DNA from: Curvularia clavata
Lineage: Eukaryota
DNA: 64,000 nucleotides
Direction: 5' to 3'
Assembly (NCBI GenBank): GCA_023920165.1
Contig: CP089278.1
Location: forward strand, 2,480,001-2,544,000
Below are positions 9,787-56,005 of the stretch, in pieces (position 1 is the first letter of the stretch; every line of letters begins with the position of its first letter). A model generated the notes under the pieces. That model was not told where the DNA came from. It searched no databases and worked only from the letters and a program-made list of their open reading frames with translations. A program made the translations under genes and the position numbers.

Positions 9787-11534
9787 ATGAAGCCCGTTGA
9801 GCGACAGAACCTCGACGATGAGGCTCAGCTGCAGGGTATGTCTCAAATGGATGATGTGCTTAGGAAACACTGGTTAATTTGGTCATAGCACTTGGCCACA
9901 AGGGCGAGTTGCAGCGCAACTTCAGTCTCTTGTCCATGCTCGGATTGGCTTTTGCCATTTTGAACTCGTGGACCGCTCTCTCCTCGTCACTCGGCCTGGC
10001 CTTGCCATCAGGCGGCTCAACAAGTGTTATTTGGGGTCTACTCACGGCTGGTGTCTGCAACTTGGCTCTGGCTTCTTCGCTCGCAGAGTTCCTATCCGCA
10101 TACCCTACGGCTGGCGGACAGTGAGTTTTGTCATGAATTCGCTTTGGACTATGCTAATTGAAGCAAAGATATCACTGGGTGGCCGTTATCACGCCGAGCA
10201 AATGGGTTCCGCTCACGTCCTTTATCACTGGCTGGATCAACGTATCGGGCTGGATCGCCCTGACCACTTCAGGAGGGCTCCTTGCTTCGCAACTTATTTC
10301 GGGTCTTATCGTTCTCTATCATCCGGAATTCGAGCTGAGACCATGGCAAGTATGGCTGATCTACGTGGCGTGGACACTGATCGCCTTCGTTGTCAATGCC
10401 TTCATGAATAGCCTGTTGCCTTATGTCAATCGAACCGCATTCATCTGGTCTATTGGCGGATTTGCAATCATTTGCATCACCGTCCTAGCCTGCGCCTCCC
10501 CCGACTATGCTTCCGCCGAGTTCGTTTTCACCGAGTTCATCAACGAGACGGGATGGCCGGATGGTATCGCTTGGCTTCTGGGACTGCTCCAGGGTGGATT
10601 CGGCCTGACTGGCTACGACGCTGTTGCCCACATGATTGAGGAGATTCCAAATGCTTCGGTCGAAGGACCCAAGATTATGATCTACTGCGTCTGTATCGGT
10701 ACTGTCACAGGCTTCATCTTCCTCATGGTCCTGCTATTCGTTTCCGGAGGCGACGCAGCGTCTATCATTTCAGCAGCGCCAGGACCGCTTCTCCAGATTC
10801 TCTACAACGCCACCAAAAGCCGAGCGGGCGCTACGTGCCTCTTGATGTTTCCATTGGTTTGCATTCTTTTCGCAGAGACGGCCATCATGACAACTTCAAG
10901 TCGGATGACGTACGCTTTCGCTCGTGACGGGGGACTGCCATTCTCCAAGTTTTTCGCAAAGGTTCATCCTCGACTCGGCCAGCCGCTGAATGCGCTCATT
11001 CTGGCCGCTACTCTGACCATACTCTTCGGTTTGATCTTGATCGGTTCTAGCAGTGCTTTTAATGCTCTCATTTCTGCATCTGTCGTTGCTTTGGGTGTGA
11101 GTTACGCCATCCCAGTTGCCATCAACCTTTGTCGTGGCAGAAAGGCGCTTGGTTCCCGGGCTTTTGCTTTGCCGGAGCCTCTTGGCTGGGCAGCTAATAT
11201 CCTCGGCGTTGTTTACACCATCATTACTACGGTTCTTTTCCTGTTCCCGCCAGAACTGCCTGTTACACCTTCGAACATGAGTAAGTTTTCTTCTCAATTA
11301 TGCTCGAGAGCGTTTCTCTAACCATGTCTAGATTACTGTGTTGTTGCCTTTGGAATCATCCTTTTCATAAGCACATTCCAATGGTTCATCGATGGGCGCA
11401 AGAACTTTACGGGTCCAAGAACAGATATGGGACTTGAAGTGCTGGAAGCTATGCAAAGCCAGGAGCAGAACAGACCTGAACCTCAGATAACGAAGACTGA
11501 TGGCGATGAGTTGGCTCCGCACACGATTCCATAA
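9787..11534 (+). CDS. APC-family amino acid/choline/GABA permease
   Basis: LGHKGELQRNFS, LAEFLSAYPTAGGQYHW, GYDAVAHMIEE and SRMTYAFARDGGLPFS. Introns 9836-9888, 10121-10168 and 11281-11331 all restore frame. Confidence 0.93.
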
Positions 11535-12175
11535 TTAGAAAGACGACTTCTATATTCAAAACATGTTTTATCAGCAGAGAATTTTGATCTTTTTGCGATG
11601 TATCCGTGATATGCGGTCGTGGTCGAAAATTATGCAATGAAACAATGTATGGCTTTGTCACTGTCTTAACATTGCCTTGCTACAGCTCGAGAACGGATAA
11701 TGTCTTTCAGTGAGCCGTCTAAAGAATCCATAGAACCCAAGTGTTGCGATTTGTGATCAATTTTAGACAGTGCAATCAAAACTCCGTTTTGAAATCGCTC
11801 ATTTCATTCAAAATCACTACAAACAGCATTAAACATAATATGATAAAGCACGTATATACTTCGACCCTTTGATGTTTATAGAAATACTTATCTCTTATCT
11901 CCTAGAGCCAGAAAATGCATTGTGGGGGGGGGGTTTACGAGCGGCTCAATGTTTTGATGCAGGCCGTTTTTGTTGTACTATTTTAATTGGAATCATTCCT
12001 GATAGTAGGGTTCACGGAATGATTCCGCAACCAATTCCCGATGACGGAATACTCTCTAACCCCGCGTCCGCCCCGCGTCCACCCGTGTCGGTACTTGTAT
12101 GATCGCGTCCTGGCAAAGTACAATGTATTTTTCTTCGTTACATCTCCCAATTTCTCTAGAAACTCAAGTTTCACC

Positions 12176-12982
12176 ATGGCTGCCACAAAAGTTGCCCTAA
12201 TTACAGCAAGTTCAGCGGGCTTAGGGGCCCAAATAGCCCGTACACTTGCACCGGACTTCCGCATCGTAGGTAAATCTATATAGATGTTCAAAACTGTAAA
12301 CTGATTTGACCAGGTAATCAACTACTCATCCAATTCCGAGCGTGCCCAGTCTCTAGTTAAAGAGCTTTCATCCATACCCGGCAGTTCTTCACAGTCGAAT
12401 CCACGCTTCCATGTAATCCAAGCCGATATGTCCTCGAAGCCCTCAGTGCAAAACCTAGTCAAAGAAACACTCGAGAAAATGGGTCGCCTAGACGTCGTAA
12501 TCTCCAACGCAGGCTGGACACGCATGACAACCTTCACAGACATCGAGCAGCAAATCAACGACGACGATTGGGACAAGTGCTTCACCATGAACGTCAAGAC
12601 ACATCTGTGGCTCGCCTACGCCGCAAAAGATGCCCTCGCTGAAACAGAAGGCTGCTTTATTTCGACCGCCAGCGTAGCCGGCGTCAAGCCTAGCGGTAGC
12701 AGCGTCCCCTACGCTGTCACCAAGGCCGCGCAGATCCACCTCATGAAGAGCCTGGCGACTATTCTGGCACCAAAAATCAGGGTCAATAGTATTAGCCCTG
12801 GCATGCTGCTGACGGAGTGGGGACTCAAGTTCCCAGAGGCGAAGCGCAATGCGGCAATTAATAACACGAAGTTGAAGAGGTTGGCGACGGTGGAGGATTG
12901 TGCGGAGCAGGTTAGGGTGCTGGCGCTGAGTCGTAGTATTACGGGGCAGAATATTTGCATTGATGGTGGGTCATCCGTGTAG
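12176..12982 (+). CDS. Short-chain dehydrogenase/reductase
   Basis: VALITASSAGLG (Rossmann variant), SNAG, YAVTK (YxxxK), IRVNSISPG and ITGQNICIDGG. One intron at 12266-12313. Confidence 0.92.
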
Positions 12983-13079
12983 TGAGGAGTGTCAATGTTC
13001 AACAGGTTTAGGATGTAACAAGAGGGTATATGTTAGATTTGATCCGAAATACTCTAGATACTGAAACATTTCTTTGCGC

Positions 13080-15804
13080 CTAGTAGTATTCGTCCTCCTG
13101 TGGCGCACCGACATTGGGCCTAGAGTCGTTTCTATTTCCCCTCAACGCTGCTATGGCGTCTTCATCCTTACGGTATAGATCTTTGAGGTACTTTTTGAAC
13201 GACCGTGACATGTCGACCGTTGCCTCGATGTGCTTTTGCTTGATGATGATGCAACCGCGTGAGTCTTTCTCTTCTTCTGTTTCAGCCAGTGAGACAGCGA
13301 TCTGGAAAGCTAGTAGCGCAGAAGATTTAGTATATTTGACATGAAGAGGGAGACGGATGTGATTATCTCATACCGTTTCTGATTTCTCGGCCATTCCACT
13401 GCAGCTGCTTGAGCTCTTTGGACTCCTCGACATACGCACGTGTGTTATTATGAACTCTGATCTCGCCCTCACGTTCGCGCTCGAGTTTCTGAAAGAATGA
13501 CTCCCAGACTTCTGTTCGCGCTTTGTCGGAAAAGGGTGGGTAGTATATCGTGAGGTTAATGCGGGAAATGAAGGCTTCGTCAAACATTCCTACTCTATTT
13601 GTGGTTAGAAAGAGAATGCCTTGGTAGTACTCCATTGCGCGTAAGAAAGCAGCAACCAGACTGTTGCGCTCAATATCCTGGACGCGCCTGTGTTCCATAA
13701 AGATATCTGCTTCGTCGATTAGCAGGATGGCGTTCCATGCTTTTGCGTATTTGAAGAATTCCATGAGTTTCTCTTCAATGTTGACCGGGTTTGTTCCAAT
13801 GTCCGCGCATGTGATGGTCAGGAGAGGGCGTCCTGCATTGGCGGCAATGCATTCTGGAAGGGAGTTAGTCTAACGTGATGTCACGTATCTGGAGTGTCAT
13901 CATTCACCAGCTGTATACGTTTTTCCAACACCTGGTTTTCCATGCAACAGAAATATTAGTCCTTCTCCTTTGCCTTTGACAAAATCTGGAGACCACGGCT
14001 TTTTCGGCATTTGCTGGTCCGTAACTGCAGAGTTCTTCTCTCCGAATTTTGCCTCCCGTGCTGCTTCTGCTTCCAGTCCGAGGAGGTATTTTTGTGTCAG
14101 GCTTCGAATGAGCTGTTTGACGGATGGGTCCTCCAAAACCAGCGTGTCTAGCATTGACCTATCGTATACAGCTGGTCGAAATCCTGACACTTCTAGCTCA
14201 CCTGCACATATGTCAGTAGGTTCTAGGAAGAGTACATAAAGAAGTGTTCATACTCCATTGGCGTTGCTTCAGCACATAGGCATGTGTACTGCGGTGGCAT
14301 AGAAAATATTGGTGGTCCGTCATGCCCGAAACATTGAGAGGATTGATATTCGAATAGCCGCTGAATTTGAACGGCTTGGTATGCGAGGTCATTATCTTGT
14401 GACAAACATCGCAACAGTGACGGTCAAGGAGCAACCCATTGTCAGTTTCGAAATTGTATGCAAGCGGTGGCCAAGCTTCAGAGGTTGAATCCAAGCTCAT
14501 TGAGTACCGATCAGGATCTGATACGACTAGTCCTTCAATCTAGCAACAGTTAGAATCACCGCAAGACTGGATCTTATAAAACTCACAGGTCGGCGCGGAA
14601 ACGTGGTAGTATAGCCTCGAAAGTCCCAGCAACTTTGTCGTCTCAGCTGGAAGAATGTCTTCCCTCTCTGCTCAAAAAAATGCCTAGCTTCTTCTCTTTC
14701 TCCCCAAACTTTGTTGTTGACACGGTGTTCGAATGGATGAAGAACCATGGAACTGATCTTCATTTCCCCTGCGAAGGGCTCGATTGTGACCATGGATTTA
14801 GCCGGGCCAATGTGTAACACATCAGCAGACATGTTCCAGATTTCGAGGGAATATGTTCGAACTGATCCATTCACGACTGCACAATCCATGGACCCCATTA
14901 CATGAGGTTGATACTCGCCGATAATGTCCTTGTCGTATAGCACATCGATTCCGGGAGGGAAAAGAAGCCACAGCATGTCATATGTAACCATGCCCCTTTC
15001 GTGGCGCTTGCGTTCATCTTCAACAGCTGTTCCGATCGATGCTTTTACAAAATCTCTAACGATGCCAATATGTTTGTAAGCATACTGACCCGGGCAACTC
15101 GTTCCAATACAACTTGGCGATGCGAAGCTTTCCTGATACTTGGCGAGAGCGTCGTCGTAGTGCACCAACAATGCGTAGGGCCACTTTACTTTCAATTTTC
15201 TTGCTCCAAGGTCGTATCCTGGGGCATACTCAACCACGCATCGCAAAGCTTCTAGAACCGCTGGTGAGGTGATTTCGATGTAGGAACCAAGGCGTGTTTC
15301 ATATGGCGGCAGCTTAACGTCTTCGTCATCCTCCGGCTTATGCTCTGTCTTTTTGGTTTCTCCTGTCGTGTCTATCGAATCCGGTGTCGGGTTCACTAAA
15401 AATTCTTTGGCATTGGCTTCAAGCCAGGTATTTCGAACATCAACAACTTTCCTGCAAAGATTCATCAATTCAGAGCCTCAAGACATTATAGTTATAGATT
15501 CTTACATAACCGGCGACTGGGTTAGAACATCCTGTTCAAAATTATGCGCCCGCCTTTTCAGCGATCGACTGTGCAGATGTTCCAGGGCTGCATTCACATA
15601 GCGAATCTCATAGGTTATCTCATCTGGATCTTTGGGCTCGTTCTCTTTAGCAACACTCTTGTTGGCCTGCACACGGGCTTCTTTCCGCTCATTGAAATCG
15701 CCATCTTCAGAGACACTTGTATTGGCGTCATTCGTGGAGGGCATACCAACCGCTGAGTCTCGAAAAGTAGTGGCCATTTCGTCTTCGTACTGGACGAGGT
15801 CCAT
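13080..15804 (-). CDS. Fungal AAA+ ATPase with a long N-terminal domain (DUF7025-type family), 6 exons
   Basis: Walker A LLHGKPGVGKT, Walker B ILLIDEAD, FLRAMEYYQGILFLTTNR, FDEAFISRI and WNGREIRN. N-terminal ALRCVVEY..P and TYDMLWLLFPPG. Five GT-AG introns give a continuous frame. The start codon choice is uncertain. Confidence 0.9.
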
Positions 15805-16302
15805 GTTAGAGGTATACTTGGAGCAAAGGATGTCTTCCAGCTGGGAAAGCTCACAAAAGTCGTATGATATGGGAACAGCCCCCAAATATGAGAAGCCTAG
15901 AGAACACATGTTACTGGCGTTCTAGGGTCTCAGCTCCAACCGAATGGCCCCCACACCTCAAGAGCGGCTCGACGCAAGCCGAACTGTTACTTTGAGCGCC
16001 GCTTGTATGAAAACGGATCAGGCCGATTACTCAAAAGTGGGGCACAATTGAAGGTGGATAAACTGTAGTATATGGCGCAAGGCTGTGCGTTTCTTCACCC
16101 AATAGAGCCTCAACACGTCGAGTCAGCCAGCCGAGAGGCTTACATGCGTGTAACCCATCCATGTTTAAGTAGGCAGTCGCCGAGACATCCTTTCCAGCCT
16201 GCTTGTGGTGGCGGCAAGGCTGAACATGGAAACCTTAGAGACTTATAAGGCTCTCAGATTGATGTGATTTGGAACACGATTGCGACCGGGCAAAATGTGA
16301 AC

Positions 16303-18420
16303 ATGGCGGAATACAAAGCATCTGAAGAGGAGCAATTCGTTCCAAGAGAAATTGTGCGCGCCTTCTCCATGCGCATCCGCGAGGAATATGAAAGTGGCGT
16401 CGAGGGCGAGACGGAACTAGGGCGGGTTCTCGTGGACAAGGCCAGAGACGATGAGAGTCAACAAAAGAAACGCATCCGGCAGATAAACGAGTATCTCAAT
16501 TCGACGAGGTAAGATCTTTCGCGGGTTAGTGACTTTTGTTTCATGATAGCTGATCAGGTGCAAAAACGTAGACCCCAGGAGCTCGCGAAATTGAACCAAC
16601 TCAGGCGGTCCCTAGAGTTGTCTATGCACGATTTCTGTGTCAGCATTCAAAAGTCCCGGTCCCAAGATGTTTCGCCCAAGAAGATCGACTCTTGGGAGGA
16701 TGTCACGTCAATAGTTGAAGGCGTCATGGGTCGCCTGCAACAGAAGAAAGAGACAGAGAAATTTCGCCGTGCCACCAAGCACTTCCGTACCTTTTGCAAC
16801 ACCATCAAGTCCCATTCCACAGCCTTGAAAATGCTACCGACAAACAACGACTATGTCAAAGTCTTTTATGGGGCTCTTGCTACAGTGATTCAGGTTCGTG
16901 TTACAAGAATATTCGTCTGAAAAGAAAACGCGTTGACATTGCTACAGGCATCCGAGGGCTATACCAAAGTGATGGAGGCCTTACCCAGAGCGCTCGTTGA
17001 GATCAACGATGCTGTAGCCGCAATAGAGAAGCGCTCGTGGCTTTTTGAAAACGACACGATGAAAAGTTACATGTGGCGGATTTATAGTCAGATATTCGCA
17101 TTTCTGGGAGAGGTCATCCGCTGGTATACCAAGCGATCTGCTCAGCGCCTCCTAAGTAGTTTCAATGAGCATCTACTCGAGTTCTTCGACGACCAGGTCG
17201 AGGAGATTAAAAAGCTAGCAAAGCTAGTTCACGACGAGGCCGATTTCCGTGCGCAGGCTGATGCGCAGATCAACAGACTTTATCTCGAGGAAATGGATGG
17301 CAAGATGGATAGGTTCATGAAAGAACTTCGTGAAAGAGACGCTGCTCACCGCGATGTTTCAGCTCAACGATACGAACGATTCCATGAAGCATTGGAGAAA
17401 AGGCGACGGGACGAATTGTGGAATGAGGACATCCTCCAAAACGTACTGATGGATACCTGGAACAAAATGAGGAGGCAAGACACGGGAACAGCAATATCCG
17501 AGATCCTGGAGGCAGACGCACGAAAGCAGCTTGCTTGGCGAGACGACTCAGAGCAGGTTCAGAGAGCTCAAAACGACGAGGTATCTGGATCAAGCCAAAT
17601 AATTGAAACGCGCACAATCATGCAAAGAAGTATCGAGGATTCTCCTGTATCTCAAGTCACTCGAGATGCACTACTGCTGAGCTCCTCTGACCTAGAAGAC
17701 TACTTTGACCGCGCCAAACTCGCTATACCCGGAGCACTTGAGACCAATTCTATGCTTGCGGATCCAAATGTGGCAGATCAGATAAGATCTTGGGTTATGG
17801 CAACCAATTCTCAGATTCTGTATACCTGTGGTACAGACCCTTTCGAAGAAAGCTCTCAGAGCTTGGGCGCTGTGGGCCAATACATGACGGTCATACGACA
17901 GGCAGGTCTGCCCGTATGCTCGTACTCTTGCTCACTCTCGACGGAGCCCCCACCTAAAGGCCGTACGCGCGAGACGATAGAGCTAGTGGCTTTGGTGTAT
18001 AGTCTGATACGGCAGTCGATTGAACTTCTTCCACCTGCAATTGAATCCGACAACCAAACGATTCAGGATTTTCAATGGGACAAACTCGACGGGACATTGA
18101 GAACTTTCCCGCTTGCATTTGAGATTCTAGACGCCCTATTACGCGCGACCAGACATGCAGTTGTCTTCATCATTATCGATGCCATTGACCTCCTGGATGA
18201 TCCAAGCCATAGGAGTACCGATCGATGGCTATCAGGTGTCCTGCAGTTGTTCAAAAACCTATTGACCTCTGTGAAAAGCACGACTTTCAAGATATGGCTC
18301 AACTCCAGTGGACGTTCACCAATACTGCTCGAGTCCCTCGAACCGCATCAGATTGCATTCTCCGGTTCATCAGGGAGGTCAAGTCGGCGGGTACTTGGCA
18401 GTGAATTTATAATGCTATAG
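16303..18420 (+). CDS. Degenerate NACHT/STAND-like protein: helical N-terminal domain plus NACHT-like fold without a P-loop and without C-terminal repeats (~666 aa)
   Basis: Exons 16303-16508, 16572-16893, 16948-18420. SWEDV..., LKMLP..DY..VFYGAL..VIQAS and IYSQIFAFL...IRWY resemble fungal NLR N-terminal helical domains (Goodbye/DUF7708-like). IRSWV...SQILY.CG, LVYSLIRQ and VFIIIDAID are NACHT-like. Confidence 0.75.
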
Positions 18421-18523
18421 CGCCCAGAAATTTCGTTCCTGAGCTACACCAGACGGTCACGTCGAAAGCTTTTTTTTATTATTGTTCATTTCTTCATATA
18501 CTGTCGTGACTGTTCATGATATA

Positions 18524-19951
18524 CTAACGATAGGTGTCAGAGGCTTCCCATTCCTGCCGGATCATAACTTGACGAGACTCTTGACTGACTATAGAGGCGC
18601 TCTCGTCCTGGTAGCACTGCACTCCATCCTTTGCTTTTGATGCCAATGTTGTCATCTTAGATTTCCGCTTCGAGCGCCCTTGTATTGATGTAGTGTGGGC
18701 TTGCGGCGTGGTGTCTTGGGGCGCAGCTTTCGTTCTCGATTTCCACTTCGTCAATGATCTCAACTCGAAGCTTGTTTGTGCCCCGCTGACTTCGCCTGTT
18801 GTTGGATCTCTTGCATAGGCCAGAGATAAACCCGTGGTTTTGAACCCCTGGGTAAAGCCTTTGAGTATGGGCGTTGTGGCGGATATGAGGCTATAAGATA
18901 AAAGAGTATCTTGCCAAGCGACTGTCGAGACGATTTGAATAGCTGATTGACCGTTTTGGGCAAAGTCAGAGTACGCGAGCATGTACATAATCGAGAATAC
19001 AATGTTCCTAAGAGATACCATCATTATTTCATCCAGTATACTTAGTGCTGAAGATGTGGTGACTTACGGTACTCTGGTAGAAAATGCCACCATGACGATA
19101 AACTTGTCCTCCATGTCCATTTTATTGCCGTAGAGTCCCAAAACTGGTAACAGAATAATGGCAACTTCGCTGAAGATGTCGCCGGCGGTAAGTGCTTGAA
19201 TCCATGGGGCCTAAATTGTGAGAATGCACTTAAAATCTCAGATCTCCAAAGAGGAAGGGCTACAAAAACTTACAGAATCAATGCAATGACCAGATCCAAA
19301 TCTGGGTATGATGCCTTCGATTGAACATCCAACCGGAACTGAAATCATTCCAACTAAGCCCCATACTACAAGAAACGCTATGGTAACGTATGCTGCATAT
19401 GTGACCCTGGGCATGCGTCCAAAGACTTCCGAGACAAGAACGAGTATCGAGCATTTGGATAATGTGAGTGCAATGTAGAGTAAGATACGGCTGGCGAAGA
19501 AGGTCTGGTCATACGTTTCAGTACGTGTTCTCTTTTTTTTGAAGATATTGCCAATGGGGCAGCGTCGCTACTGACCCGCTGAACTTGCGATATTTCAGCA
19601 TCGTCAAGAATATCATACGATTTTCCAAGACCATGTCCCACGGACCAGAGCAGCACACCCCACATACCAAGTCCTGCGACCTACAGTGCCATCAGCTGTT
19701 TCGTCCTAAAGAGCTAGCGGGAATATTCGAATCCATACGTATGCCAAAATGACGACGATATCGTCAGAGCCGAACGCTCTCCATTTTGTGTACCCCAGAC
19801 GTACTCCCAGAACCAGGGTAGCATAGATAGGCGCTAGTAGGGTTACAATCCACAGCGTAGCACTATGATCATCGGGCGTGATGCGAGCAAAGCGGTAATC
19901 TTCCGCTCTAACCATGTGTCGAGAAGTGGGCGTCAAATCCATTTGTTGCAT
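18524..19951 (-). CDS. PTH11-like (fungal rhodopsin-domain) integral membrane protein without CFEM, 5 exons
   Basis: LGVRLG.....FGSDD, VGHGLGK, LSKCSIL, DIFSEVAIILLP, VMVAFSTRVP and YSLISATTPILK. Four GT-AG introns restore frame. The start may be at 19942. Confidence 0.85.
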
Positions 19952-53272: not shown

Positions 53273-54379
53273 CTAAACAAATTCCAAACATCCATCCCTA
53301 TTCGATATCCTCTCATCGAGATTGATCTCCCTTAGTCTCCACTCGCCTCCACTCTCCAACTCAGCCTCCAATCTCTGGCCGCCATCCGTCAACCTCACAT
53401 TGCGTGCACTGGCACCAAAGTTGCCTCCACCACTGCTGTTTCCGCCAGTACCTGGGATTCTGAGATTCTGGCCAGGCCAGATCTGATCGGCGTTGGCGAT
53501 GTTGTTATGGCGCGCGATGTCGTCGAAGGAGCAGTGCGAGTAGCGTGCCGCGATAGCACGGAGTGTATCACCGGGCTGAACGGTGTATGAGGATTCGCCG
53601 CTGCTGCCGCCGGAGGAGCCAGAAGACCAGCGGAAGGAGCCGCAGTCGTTGGAAAGGTACCTGTTCAAGCTGATGGAAGAAGACTGGTACGATCCATCCG
53701 CGCGACGACACTGCGCATGCAGAACGTAGTCGCCATGGGCATCGAGCCTGATATCCCGCGACGAGGCAGTAAAGTTGCCGCCGTAGTTACCTGCAGAACG
53801 CTGGTCGTTGTGGTGTTGAGGGGCAGCACCATAACCTTGTTTACGACGGCGTTCCTCTTCTTCCTCGCGGCGTCGACGCTCCTCTTCAGCGTGCTTCTTG
53901 TCTTTGTGCTCGTCCCATCGGTCTTCGATGGCGTCTTGGCCCTTGTGGCCAGCAAAGGCGCCTGCAAGAGCACCTACAATGGCTCCGGCAGTACCGTGTC
54001 CAGATTTCCCGCCCAAGGCGTGTCCGCCATAACCTCCTGCTGCGGCACCGGCAATACCGCCCATTATACCGCGTTCACCTTCGGGATCACCCTGGCCACC
54101 ATATTGATTTTGGTAGCCTTGGTTGTGCGAGTTGCGGCCGGAGTTGGAAGAGTGCGAGGCGGTAGACGGGTATTGCTGGTACTCGGGTGGTGCGGAGGAA
54201 TCGTAGCCTTGCTGGGGTGGTCCGCCCTGGCTGCCGTAGTACTGGCTGGCGGCGCCCTGAGGTGGCTGTTGCTGGTATCCGCCACCGTTGTTGTTGTACT
54301 CGTTTTGACCGTATCCACCACTTTGATTGTACTCGTTCTGTCCGTACCCACCACCCTGATTGTATCCGTATCCAGACAT
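53273..54379 (-). CDS. CVNH-LysM lectin (LysM inserted in a split cyanovirin-N homology domain) with a G/Y/Q/N-rich N-terminus and a glycine zipper
   Basis: GNFTASSRDIRL...LNRYLSNDCGSFRW, LysM YTVQPGDTLRAIA...IARHNNIANADQIWPGQNLRIP, and GNFGASARNVRL...INLDERISNRDGCL. Confidence 0.93.
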   Translation of the reverse strand: MSGYGYNQGGGYGQNEYNQSGGYGQNEYNNNGGGYQQQPPQGAASQYYGSQGGPPQQGYDSSAPPEYQQYPSTASHSSNSGRNSHNQGYQNQYGGQGDPEGERGIMGGIAGAAAGGYGGHALGGKSGHGTAGAIVGALAGAFAGHKGQDAIEDRWDEHKDKKHAEEERRRREEEEERRRKQGYGAAPQHHNDQRSAGNYGGNFTASSRDIRLDAHGDYVLHAQCRRADGSYQSSSISLNRYLSNDCGSFRWSSGSSGGSSGESSYTVQPGDTLRAIAARYSHCSFDDIARHNNIANADQIWPGQNLRIPGTGGNSSGGGNFGASARNVRLTDGGQRLEAELESGGEWRLREINLDERISNRDGCLEFV

Positions 54380-56005
54380 GTTGTTGACTTTGCTCTGGTG
54401 TACTTGTCAAGCTGATCCAAGCTCAACTGTCGTCCGTCCGTCCGTTTCTTAAACTAAGAACGAGATCCGAATACGAGATGTAGGAGAAAGGTTGACAATA
54501 GATGTTTGATGACTAGAAGCTTATTCAAGGGTTGTGGCTTCAAGTTTATCAAAGCTCTGTCGTGAGGTTGAAAACGTTTCACAAAGAATGAAGGTTCAAG
54601 ATGCGGGGAAGAAGGGCAGGAGGGAAGAAGGTCTGTAAATAGCTCTAACGTGATTCCAAACCACGGTACTGTGTCGGCGAAAAAACGTCACACTATTATA
54701 TATATATCCTTCGCGGATGTACGACCATTGCCCCCAACAAACCCCACTAGACGCATGATGCGCCAGCTGTACAGCCACAATTGACGTCGTCACCGCCACT
54801 TGGGCTGCCTCGGAAGACCGGCAGGGGGCTGGCCGGGCGGGGTGGGCGGTGGGAGGGGAATGGGGACAGAAAAGAAGAGGGGATTGGCAAAGCATGCATT
54901 TGCCCGACTCCACCTTTTACAGCACATCCCAGCAATTAACTGACACGCACCAAGTACTAAGAATAAACCTAAAAGGGTTGGACCAGACACTCTAAGAAAC
55001 TAGAGCATAGATCGATTGAACAAAGACATTTGATAGTAGCTAAGCCATGAAGGTGTGAGTGTTTTCAGGGTGTTGTTGTTTTTGCTGGGCTGGTCGTCAA
55101 TAGAGTGTGCTATACGCCCGCCTGGCCGACCAATGTTTGCTTCCGTTCCGCACGCGCCACAAAACGGCCAACTAAGCTGACCGCCACATTTCTGCCACTC
55201 CGGCGCTAACACGAGGGAGGCTGACGTGCTCAAGCCACGCGCGATTACGTATGAGGTGGCTTACTCACATGGGCTTGCTGGTGAGTGTGCAAGTCGAGAA
55301 GACTGGAGTCTACGTATGGATCAATGTATACTTTGTCTTGGTGTGCTTCTTGTTGTTGTTTTCTGTGTGCACTCAGCACCAGAAGCCGCATTGTGTCCCC
55401 ACGCTACCACAAAGTCTGAAAACCGGGGCCAAACTCGTACAACGCCCGCTGTTTTGTTGTCGGTCACACCAGCATTCACGTGATCAGTATTTGAAAAGGC
55501 GGTAAACGCAATTGGTTGTATGCAACTGTCTTTCTAACTTTTATGTAGCGACCGTCTTGTTCCCGCCACCGGACTGTGTACAAAAAAAAACGCCTACACA
55601 ATGCATCCGCTTACAAAAAGATTGAAACTCAGAAAAAACTTAAAGGAGAGACATGACGCGTGATATAAAAACGATGAAGCATTAGCAAGGAGGTGTATGT
55701 ACAGGAAAGAAAGAACAAAACAGACTGAGAAAGAAAGTATGTGTTTGATATAGATACAGGTGGTTCGACGAGCGCCGATTTCGAAAGCGCGAGTGGCTTG
55801 CCATGGTGGTACCCCTAGCTCCGATACGAATGCTAGAGCTAGCTGACGGCGCTAATTCCGGCGCGAGAACGTGAAAATCACCCCAAGCGATTGCCTGGAA
55901 GCGGGATCGAGTAGGCCAAGTGAAGAGATTGTGTGTAAAGTAATGCTGAGTAATTGTTCGCTCAAACAGACATTGATGAAATATTCAAAAGGTCTAACAA
56001 ACTCT

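What the first reader, a model, noticed from the sequence alone, without database searches (positions are those of the whole stretch)
13080..18420. Head-to-head pair: intact AAA+ ATPase and a P-loop-dead, sensor-less NACHT-like protein, a candidate two-gene immunity/allorecognition module
Seen: two divergently transcribed, intact multi-exon genes with starts only ~500 bp apart, among unrelated metabolic genes. One has complete Walker A/B and an SRI arginine-finger region. The other has an NLR-type helical N-terminal domain and a NACHT-like core that keeps Walker B (VFIIIDAID, ~18163-18189), has CGTDPFEESSQS where GxxGxGKS/T should be (~17827-17862), and stops with no WD/ANK/TPR repeats. Known: fungal NLRs use helical effector + NACHT + repeats, and paired head-to-head genes are common in immune systems. 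Inference: the pseudo-NTPase cannot switch itself, so the neighbouring AAA+ may remodel, activate or restrain it. I know of no characterised system of this form.
Basis: partly seen in the sequence, partly recalled or inferred. Interest (0 to 1): 0.78.

Follow-up and report, generated by a model that had tools for sequence, protein, structure and literature searches.

The report
Fungal dead-NLR and AAA ATPase pair
Two back-to-back fungal genes, a working ATP-driven ring protein and a shortened immune-receptor-like protein that has lost its own nucleotide switch, stay neighbours in distantly related fungi, so they very probably act as one unit, possibly in defence, though no function has been shown.

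Summary
Both genes are intact, their start codons are 499 bp apart, and transcript contigs join all seven introns. The minus gene is a DUF7025 + AAA + AAA_lid_13 ATPase with full catalytic motifs but no aromatic pore loop. The plus gene (666 aa) folds as a DUF7708 helical bundle, a coiled coil and a bare STAND/ORC-type core. Its P-loop and sensor arginine are gone, and it ends before the helical, winged-helix and repeat domains. This loss is family-wide (142 aligned relatives; 1,310 clusters). The pair is conserved. It has consecutive accessions in 9 of 10 named genomes from two classes, is head-to-head in 3 of 3 informative metagenome contigs, and the two trees are congruent. This genome holds two further paralogous pairs, one decayed in both genes. 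Ten literature searches found no description. Function is not shown: binding, toxicity and immunity are inferred. Best reading (0.45): the ATPase is the nucleotide switch, in trans, for an NLR-derived effector. Classic allele-based allorecognition looks less likely. Nearest analogues are bacterial iSTAND-MoxR systems and IetAS; the pair is a member of neither. Earlier notes of this scan report the same pair elsewhere.

The parts
13080..15804 (-). AAA+ ATPase gene, 817 aa; exons 15804-15506, 15451-14587, 14539-14254, 14201-13908, 13853-13374, 13309-13080
   Evidence: open model; all five introns joined in contigs of X1 and X2; Pfam DUF7025, AAA, AAA_lid_13
14728..15012 (-). DUF7025 domain, in the beta-rich N-terminal half of the ATPase
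   Evidence: Pfam PF22942 E 8.4e-15, same place; beta strands in the model of homologue P0025
13918..13941 (-). Walker A, GKPGVGKT
   Evidence: invariant G-x-P-G-V-G-K-T in alignment A2
13795..13809 (-). pore-loop-1 position, CADIG, without the aromatic residue of threading AAA unfoldases
   Evidence: aligns to SKYYG/SKWVG of VAT; no aromatic residue there in the printed AAA rows that hold the loop
13705..13725 (-). Walker B, LLIDEAD
13558..13605 (-). second region of homology: TTNR (sensor 1) to SRI (arginine-finger position)
   Evidence: S670/R671 invariant in A2; motif names from established AAA knowledge
15805..16302 (.). 498-bp intergenic stretch, probable bidirectional promoter
   Evidence: AAA contigs end at 15864 (X1) and 15852 (X2); partner contigs begin at 16128 and 16209; promoter role inferred
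16303..18420 (+). NLR-derived pseudo-NTPase gene, 666 aa; exons 16303-16508, 16572-16893, 16948-18420
   Evidence: model equals P0001; both introns joined in X1, X2 and X20
16342..17160 (+). N-terminal helical bundle (residues 14-247) holding most of the DUF7708 match
   Evidence: AlphaFold2 model; Pfam PF24809 E 2.9e-14
17170..17541 (+). long helix / coiled coil (residues 251-374), then a disordered linker
17650..18369 (+). bare STAND/ORC-Cdc6-type alpha/beta core (residues 411-650), no helical domain, winged helix or repeats behind it
   Evidence: five strands in the model; Avs3 Z 11.3, Cdc6 11.1, ZAR1 10.9, Orc4 10.9, MalT 10.1; weak NPHP3_N hit, E 0.003, under cut-off
17827..17862 (+). degenerate P-loop, CGTDPFEESSQS
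18163..18189 (+). Walker-B-like strand VFIIIDAID (family hhhhDG, D 79%, G 81%)
18289..18312 (+). strand 4, KIWLNSSG (family KVLFTTxG): the arginine of the NACHT 'TSR' motif is absent
   Evidence: column counts; the TSR motif is recalled

Best explanation
A conserved two-gene module of filamentous ascomycetes in which the nucleotide switch has been moved out of an NLR. SHOWN: the partner is an NLR-derived protein (DUF7708 bundle, coiled coil, STAND core) with no P-loop, no strand-4 arginine and no downstream domains. The neighbour is an intact classic-clade AAA+ ATPase. The two are both spliced and are inherited, duplicated and lost together. INFERRED: both are made from one bidirectional promoter and form a complex. 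The dead core is a docking and oligomerisation platform. The ATPase ring holds the partner inactive, and a change in its ATP state, or its disturbance by a foreign molecule, lets the helical N-terminal bundles cluster and trigger a defence or cell-death response. Because the ATPase lacks the aromatic pore loop, it more likely acts as an ATP-gated scaffold than as a threading unfoldase. My estimates: functional unit 0.9, direct binding 0.65, defence or cell-death role 0.5.
For: Consecutive accessions in 9 of 10 named genomes where both proteins were retrieved; in the tenth the locus tags are two apart. Head-to-head in 3 of 3 metagenome loci with enough upstream DNA, one at 27% identity. In this genome 3 of 3 P-loop-less DUF7708 genes found face a DUF7025 ATPase, while the one DUF7708-like NACHT-ANK gene with an intact P-loop has none within its 9.9-kb locus. 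The C4 pair is broken in both genes, with the shared 5' region deleted. Distance matrices of 17 pairs correlate (Spearman 0.80; 0.82 for 9 distant pairs), and this genome's C6 pair sits deep in both trees. All paired ATPases lie on one side of a 0.996 branch, apart from 4 of 5 unpaired paralogues. STAND-type fold. The ATPase's best defence-library hit is IetA, E 3.9e-14, an antitoxin (PMC5006074 passages). A HET-domain gene lies directly behind the pair in L006.
Against: No experiment and no direct evidence of binding, toxicity or a trigger. DUF7708 was not shown to be a death domain: no Goodbye, HeLo or NACHT_N hit in Pfam, and the Goodbye-like function is itself unproven (10.1101/2022.03.16.484565 passages). 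The fold search cannot tell STAND from ORC/Cdc6/TnsC cores; their Z values differ by under 1. The IetA hit covers only the generic AAA core, and TRIP13 models also hit. Five of 8 ATPases of this family in the genome have no such partner, and one of them nests among the paired ones. The locus seems stable between this genome and Bipolaris (an amino-acid permease gene follows in both), unlike many fast-turnover immune loci. Tree congruence partly reflects species history. Linkage was not tested for nine other named taxa that hold the partner.
Confidence: 0.45

Rival explanations
1. The partner is a dedicated adaptor or cofactor of the ATPase, like the inactive AAA-like partners of other ATPases. 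It targets the ATPase to a client or membrane in a non-immune process such as stress response or protein quality control. NLR ancestry is history, not function.
For: Explains the linkage, co-duplication and co-decay equally well. The partner was never seen without the ATPase, but the ATPase family occurs alone. Both are transcribed in all four runs laid. The core and the bundle are about equally conserved (0.43 and 0.44), as for a scaffold.
Against: A large, fast-diverging, multi-copy family (1,310 clusters at 50%; 24-27% identity between classes) with decayed copies looks more like conflict genes than housekeeping. Other ATPases of the family face HET and Clr5-TPR genes.
Confidence: 0.27
2. 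A selfish toxin-antidote cassette (IetAS-like or spore-killer-like): the partner is toxic, the ATPase neutralises it, and the pair persists by addiction rather than by defending the host.
For: An AAA antitoxin precedent exists. The asymmetry fits (partner never alone). In the C4 pair both genes are lost together. The Alternaria copy is only 52% identical and has a 2-member cluster, which hints at a patchy spread.
Against: Apparently vertical and syntenic between this genome and Bipolaris. The trees roughly follow fungal orders. No transposon gene was noticed in the window's ORF list.
Confidence: 0.1
3. A classic het (allorecognition) locus: incompatible allele combinations of the two genes kill fused cells.
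For: Fungal het loci are often adjacent gene pairs (established knowledge). Of 11 coding differences to runs X1/X2, 7 change the amino acid.
Against: Related runs differ only by scattered single bases (14 places in X1/X2 over 8 kb). Fourteen Paecilomyces variotii partners are 96-100% identical, although they come from one 90% cluster, so divergent alleles would be missed. A 2025 review of fungal cell death never mentions AAA (PMC12881547, term count).
Confidence: 0.1
4. The linkage is only inherited gene order or a shared promoter; the proteins have no joint function.
For: Divergent neighbours are common in compact fungal genomes. Several of the named pairs are Pleosporales relatives.
Against: The pair persists across two classes and across paralogous loci on three contigs of one genome with different flanks. 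The downstream neighbour differs in Aspergillus.
Confidence: 0.08

Closest known systems
Bacterial iSTAND / iSTAND2 MoxR-vWA ternary systems (PMC7159879, PMC8195603; passages read)
   Same: A catalytically inactive STAND module encoded beside an active AAA+ ATPase; predicted conflict systems of multicellular organisms; helical or signalling domains N-terminal to the dead STAND.
   Different: Three components, with vWA; a MoxR-clade ATPase, where this one is classic-clade (p97/FtsH-like fold); operons. Their function is also only predicted. No PADLOC hit for the partner and no relative in prokaryote contigs. Analogy, not membership.
Canonical fungal NLRs (Goodbye/HeLo-like + NACHT + WD/ANK/TPR; PMC4986451, PMC12258605; passages read)
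   Same: Helical N-terminal domain before a NACHT-like core; homology to this genome's own NACHT-ANK gene is detectable; Atlas neighbours are NACHT/NPHP3_N clusters.
   Different: No Walker A, no strand-4 arginine, no helical, winged-helix or repeat domains; a long coiled coil is inserted; constant linkage to an AAA+ gene. The non-canonical P-loops of PMC4986451 were found as single-residue variants, not whole-loop loss.
IetAS / SgiAT AAA-ATPase antitoxin + subtilisin toxin pairs (PMC5006074; passages read)
   Same: A two-gene unit with an AAA ATPase beside the protein it is thought to restrain; IetA is the best PADLOC hit of the ATPase core.
   Different: The partner is not a protease; the ATPase has a ~450-residue fungal N-terminal part; no toxicity shown here.
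Plant head-to-head sensor/helper NLR pairs (described in PMC12258605 passages)
   Same: Divergent genes sharing a short promoter region, with division of labour.
   Different: There both genes are NLRs; here one is an AAA+ ATPase. That paper found head-to-head NLR-NLR pairs rare in Sordariales (13 of 225 two-NLR clusters).

Membership tests
Fungal NLR (NACHT STAND) | STAND-type alpha/beta core | tested here: met
   Avs3 Z 11.3 (rmsd 3.6, 189 aligned), ZAR1 Z 10.9; tied with Cdc6/ORC/TnsC; hhalign to own NACHT-ANK gene
Fungal NLR (NACHT STAND) | Walker A GxxxxGK[ST] | tested here: not met
   absent in P0001; lysine not among the top residues of the loop columns in 142 rows; 4 of 142 rows have a loose match elsewhere
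Fungal NLR (NACHT STAND) | Walker B hhhhD[GAS]hDE (motif as given in PMC12258605) | tested here: inconclusive
   first part kept (IIIDAID; family D 79%, G 81%); the DE is not (LL follows)
Fungal NLR (NACHT STAND) | helical / winged-helix (HETHS) domain and C-terminal repeats | tested here: not met
   model ends after strand 5; median 45 residues, at most 112, after K624 in 139 rows
Fungal NLR (NACHT STAND) | known N-terminal effector (Goodbye, HeLo, HET...) | tested here: inconclusive
   only DUF7708 hits; Goodbye/NACHT_N/HeLo clusters appear in the Atlas at 0.80-0.86, lead level
Classic AAA ATPase (DUF7025 / AAA_lid_13 fungal family) | Walker A, Walker B, SRH arginine, helical lid | tested here: met
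   p97 Z 18.6, FtsH Z 18.2 for homologue P0025
Threading AAA unfoldases (p97/VAT, Vps4) | aromatic pore-loop-1 residue | tested here: not met
   CADIG in place of SKYYG/SKWVG
iSTAND MoxR-vWA ternary system | inactive STAND next to an AAA+ gene | tested here: met
iSTAND MoxR-vWA ternary system | MoxR-clade ATPase and a vWA third gene | tested here: not met
   ATPase is PF00004 + AAA_lid_13 with classic-AAA fold neighbours; flanks are SDR and rhodopsin-domain genes
IetAS toxin-antitoxin | subtilisin-like toxin beside the ATPase | tested here: not met
   partner has no peptidase domain
het allorecognition locus | divergent balanced alleles | tested here: inconclusive
   few single-base differences in four runs, 96-100% identity among 14 P. 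variotii proteins from one cluster; no population sample
het allorecognition locus | cell death on fusion of unlike strains | not testable with these tools
   needs genetics

The most novel reading that the evidence does not exclude
A widespread, undescribed fungal immune or cell-death system: a split NLR in which sensing and nucleotide switching are done by a classic AAA+ ATPase ring, and an NLR remnant serves only as dock and executioner. It would be a eukaryotic counterpart, reached independently, of the bacterial inactive-STAND/AAA+ conflict systems, present in over a thousand sequence clusters and several copies per genome.
Probability: 0.3. Interest if true: 0.85.

Novelty: new variant of a known kind. 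Interest (0 to 1): 0.63.

Why it matters
NLR surveys start from an intact NACHT or NB-ARC domain, so this family is likely missed by them. If the pair works as inferred, fungi have a common route to immune signalling in which an AAA+ ATPase replaces the receptor's own switch. That would give a first function to two large families of unknown function (DUF7708, DUF7025) and a simple two-gene test of how dead STAND domains work, a question so far only raised by prediction in bacteria. Even under the adaptor reading it names the partner of a large, uncharacterised fungal AAA+ family.

Tried and rejected
Complex prediction on the Massariosphaeria pair (ATPase residues 30-480 with partner 115-660) gave no answer (score 0.01, mark 0.34; alignments not used; ATPase core not included); it counts neither way. 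PDB sequence search with the 142-row partner profile found only coiled-coil noise. Foldseek on the partner model had no match at E<=0.001. The ATPase's N-terminal half got no named fold: the structure list was filled by the AAA core, the Atlas returned only DUF7025 clusters, and a Foldseek run was not obtained. No partner relative was found in prokaryote genome contigs (42 candidate stretches) or viral contigs (35); these pattern scans are insensitive. I suspected a second dead NACHT core in the kinase-ankyrin gene tail-to-tail with the unpaired ATPase at C5:292k; the profile comparison did not support it (probability 0.2%). An upstream in-frame ATG of the ATPase at 15909 was rejected: contigs end at 15852-15864 and the Bipolaris homologue aligns from 15804. 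The database label 'phytanoyl-CoA dioxygenase' on Stemphylium partners is taken as carried over from a neighbouring gene: in A. niger a merged model joins the partner to that enzyme. A torsin/LULL1-like role (dead subunit donating an arginine finger; recalled) found no conserved arginine between strands 4 and 5.
Full report
1. The observation. The window is from a filamentous ascomycete; one search lists Pleosporales proteins as the closest relatives. Two intact genes run from 13080 to 18420 in opposite directions, with start codons at 15804 (minus) and 16303 (plus). The plus model (three exons, 666 aa) equals database protein P0001 letter for letter. The minus model has six exons and 817 aa. 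Contigs of four public runs were laid on 11500-19500. X1 and X2 join all five ATPase introns and both partner introns. X20 joins four and two. X9 joins three (one with a shifted cut) and one. The tool only guesses that these runs are RNA, but GT..AG skips at every predicted intron show spliced transcripts. The contigs of the two genes stop 260-360 bases apart, which fits one bidirectional promoter. Contig depth cannot rank expression, so co-regulation is not shown.

2. The ATPase. Pfam gives DUF7025, AAA and AAA_lid_13. Walker A, Walker B, TTNR, SRI and WNGREIRN are present and almost invariant in nine relatives. The model of homologue P0025 (pLDDT 82.5) has a beta-rich N-terminal half and a classic AAA core closest to p97 and FtsH (Z 18.6 and 18.2). 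At pore loop 1, where VAT has SKYYG/SKWVG, the family has CADIG or similar. One search printed 30 rows, two of which skip this stretch; none of the others has an aromatic residue there. The best PADLOC models are IetA (E 3.9e-14) and TRIP13 (2.5e-7), over the core only.

3. The partner. AlphaFold2 with 142 sequences (pLDDT 85.3, pTM 0.61) gives a helical bundle (14-247), a long helix (251-374), a disordered linker and a five-stranded alpha/beta core (411-650). Against 48,161 chains the core matches Avs3 (Z 11.3), Cdc6 (11.1), ZAR1 and Orc4 (10.9), TnsC (10.8) and MalT (10.1). These are tied, so the fold says STAND/initiator clade, not NACHT alone. NACHT ancestry rests on a weak NPHP3_N hit, Atlas neighbours and an alignment to this genome's intact NACHT-ANK gene that sets GKLGSGKS against CGTDPFEESS. 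In alignment A3 the loop keeps only its first glycine (78%). Four of 142 rows carry a loose Walker-A-like string, at other residue numbers. Walker B keeps hhhhDG. Strand 4 reads KVLFTTxG, with no arginine where NACHT domains have TSR (motif recalled). The median tail after K624 is 45 residues in 139 rows. So the whole family ends before the helical and winged-helix domains that a STAND switch needs. One caution: A3 holds the best hits to a profile of dead members, so active NACHTs were selected against. The family is large, with 1,310 clusters at 50% identity (840 at E<=1e-10). Named members come from Dothideomycetes, Sordariomycetes and Eurotiomycetes.

4. Linkage. Both proteins were retrieved with accessions for ten named genomes. 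Nine have consecutive numbers: Bipolaris sorokiniana ND90Pr (EMD66204/5), B. zeicola (EUC39187/8), B. victoriae (XP_014555119/8), Phaeosphaeria sp. (KAH7385172/1), Massariosphaeria (KAF2871550/1), Thozetella (KAH8894173/4), Cladorrhinum (KAK3987610/1), Colletotrichum falcatum (KAK1995570/69) and a Xylariaceae (KAI1330016/7). A second B. sorokiniana has locus tags two apart and a merged partner model. For nine other named taxa with a partner (Stemphylium, Alternaria, Diplodia, Paecilomyces, Rhizodiscina, Paramyrothecium, Macrophomina, Aplosporella, Aspergillus) no ATPase was retrieved, so linkage is untested there. Of five metagenome loci, three reach upstream, and all three are head-to-head with a DUF7025 ATPase, L006 at 27% identity. 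The other two are 1.2 and 1.4 kb long.

5. Paralogues in this genome. Four DUF7708 loci and eight ATPase loci of this family were found (lower bounds). Three coincide: this pair, a pair on C6 (L019) and a pair on C4 (L020). The C6 partner can be modelled as an open ~530-aa gene; it is homologous (probability 93%) and also lacks the P-loop. On C4 both genes are broken, and only about 20 bases separate the remains of their 5' parts. The fourth locus (L021, under the Pfam cut-off) is a normal NACHT-ANK gene with GKLGSGKS and no ATPase in its 9.9 kb. The five unpaired ATPases face a homoserine kinase fusion gene, a HET-domain gene, a Clr5/TPR gene, no recognised gene, or lie behind a transporter gene. 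In a tree of the AAA core all paired ATPases fall on one side of a 0.996 branch. Four unpaired ones lie outside and one lies inside (FastTree, rooted on the C3 paralogue by choice). For 17 pairs the two distance matrices correlate (Spearman 0.80, permutation p about 3e-4; 0.82 for nine distant pairs), and the C6 pair groups with L006 in both trees. The paralogues are the informative part.

6. How it probably works. Shown: a nucleotide-blind NLR remnant and an intact ATPase that are transcribed, duplicated and lost together. Inferred: they bind, and the ATPase supplies the on/off state that the partner cannot. I favour restraint with triggered release (0.45). The partner was never seen alone, the decayed pair lost both genes, an AAA antitoxin precedent exists (PMC5006074 passages), and the missing pore-loop aromatic suits a gated scaffold better than an unfoldase. 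The main rival is a non-immune adaptor (0.27), which fits the genomics equally well. The weak link is the executioner step. DUF7708 gave no Goodbye or HeLo hit, and the function of Goodbye-like domains is described as open (10.1101/2022.03.16.484565 passages). Allelic allorecognition is less likely. X1/X2 differ at 14 listed places in 8 kb; 7 of the 11 coding ones change the residue. Fourteen P. variotii partners from one cluster are 96-100% identical.

7. What is known. Ten searches found no paper with DUF7708 or DUF7025 and none describing this pair; most subscription papers are outside the library. I read term-matched passages, not whole texts, of PMC12258605, PMC7159879, PMC8195603, PMC4986451, PMC12881547, PMC5006074 and 10.1101/2022.03.16.484565. 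No supplements were read; tables of NLR clusters or P-loop variants there could list members. The nearest concept is the bacterial iSTAND system, an inactive STAND beside MoxR and vWA. This pair shares the theme but fails the MoxR and vWA features. It also fails NLR membership (Walker A, downstream domains) and IetAS membership (no protease). Five earlier AI notes of this scan describe the same pair in other genomes, and a sixth a related module. They are not independent support, and they mean that this window is another instance, not a first sighting.

8. Verdict. A real, intact, expressed, conserved and apparently undescribed two-gene module, with no functional data yet. New variant of a known kind (paired NLR-derived modules, dead STAND plus AAA+). 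Interest 0.63.

Noticed in passing
L019 (G000:C6:167500-173150): Second, apparently intact head-to-head pair of a distant subfamily; the ATPase's first open frame is 775 aa long.
   Followed up: partly
L020:3600-6600 (G000:C4:3.68 Mb): Third pair, both genes broken, with the shared promoter and both 5' ends deleted.
   Followed up: partly
L023:1-8300 (G000:C5:3247000-3255300): Unpaired DUF7025 ATPase divergent from a HET-domain gene, followed by a SesA-NACHT gene: a small cluster of immune-type genes.
   Followed up: no
L024:2270-8230 (G000:C5:883-889 kb): Unpaired DUF7025 ATPase divergent from a Clr5-domain + TPR gene.
   Followed up: no
L028:346-5990 (G000:C5:291-296 kb): ATPase that nests among paired ones but lies tail-to-tail with a kinase-ankyrin gene whose last 220 residues resemble an alpha/beta core by eye; no homology to the partner profile was found.
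   Followed up: partly
L006:7696-9381: HET-domain gene directly downstream of the pair in a metagenome contig.
   Followed up: no
window 12113-15864 and 16128-19500: Transcript contigs run through from the SDR gene into the ATPase and from the partner into the rhodopsin-domain gene, suggesting overlapping 3' ends of convergent genes on both sides.
   Followed up: no
window 14650-15674: Runs X9 and X20 show a cluster of differences in the ATPase's N-terminal half; 11 of 24 listed ATPase differences in X20 change the residue (44 rows were not shown).
   Followed up: partly
window 53273-54406: Glycine/glutamine-rich ORF ending in what looks like a CVNH-LysM lectin (read by eye, not scanned).
   Followed up: no
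P0007, P0039, P0216: Database names 'phytanoyl-CoA dioxygenase' and 'dihydropteroate synthase' on partner homologues look like wrong labels; the first matches the neighbouring gene in A. niger.
   Followed up: partly
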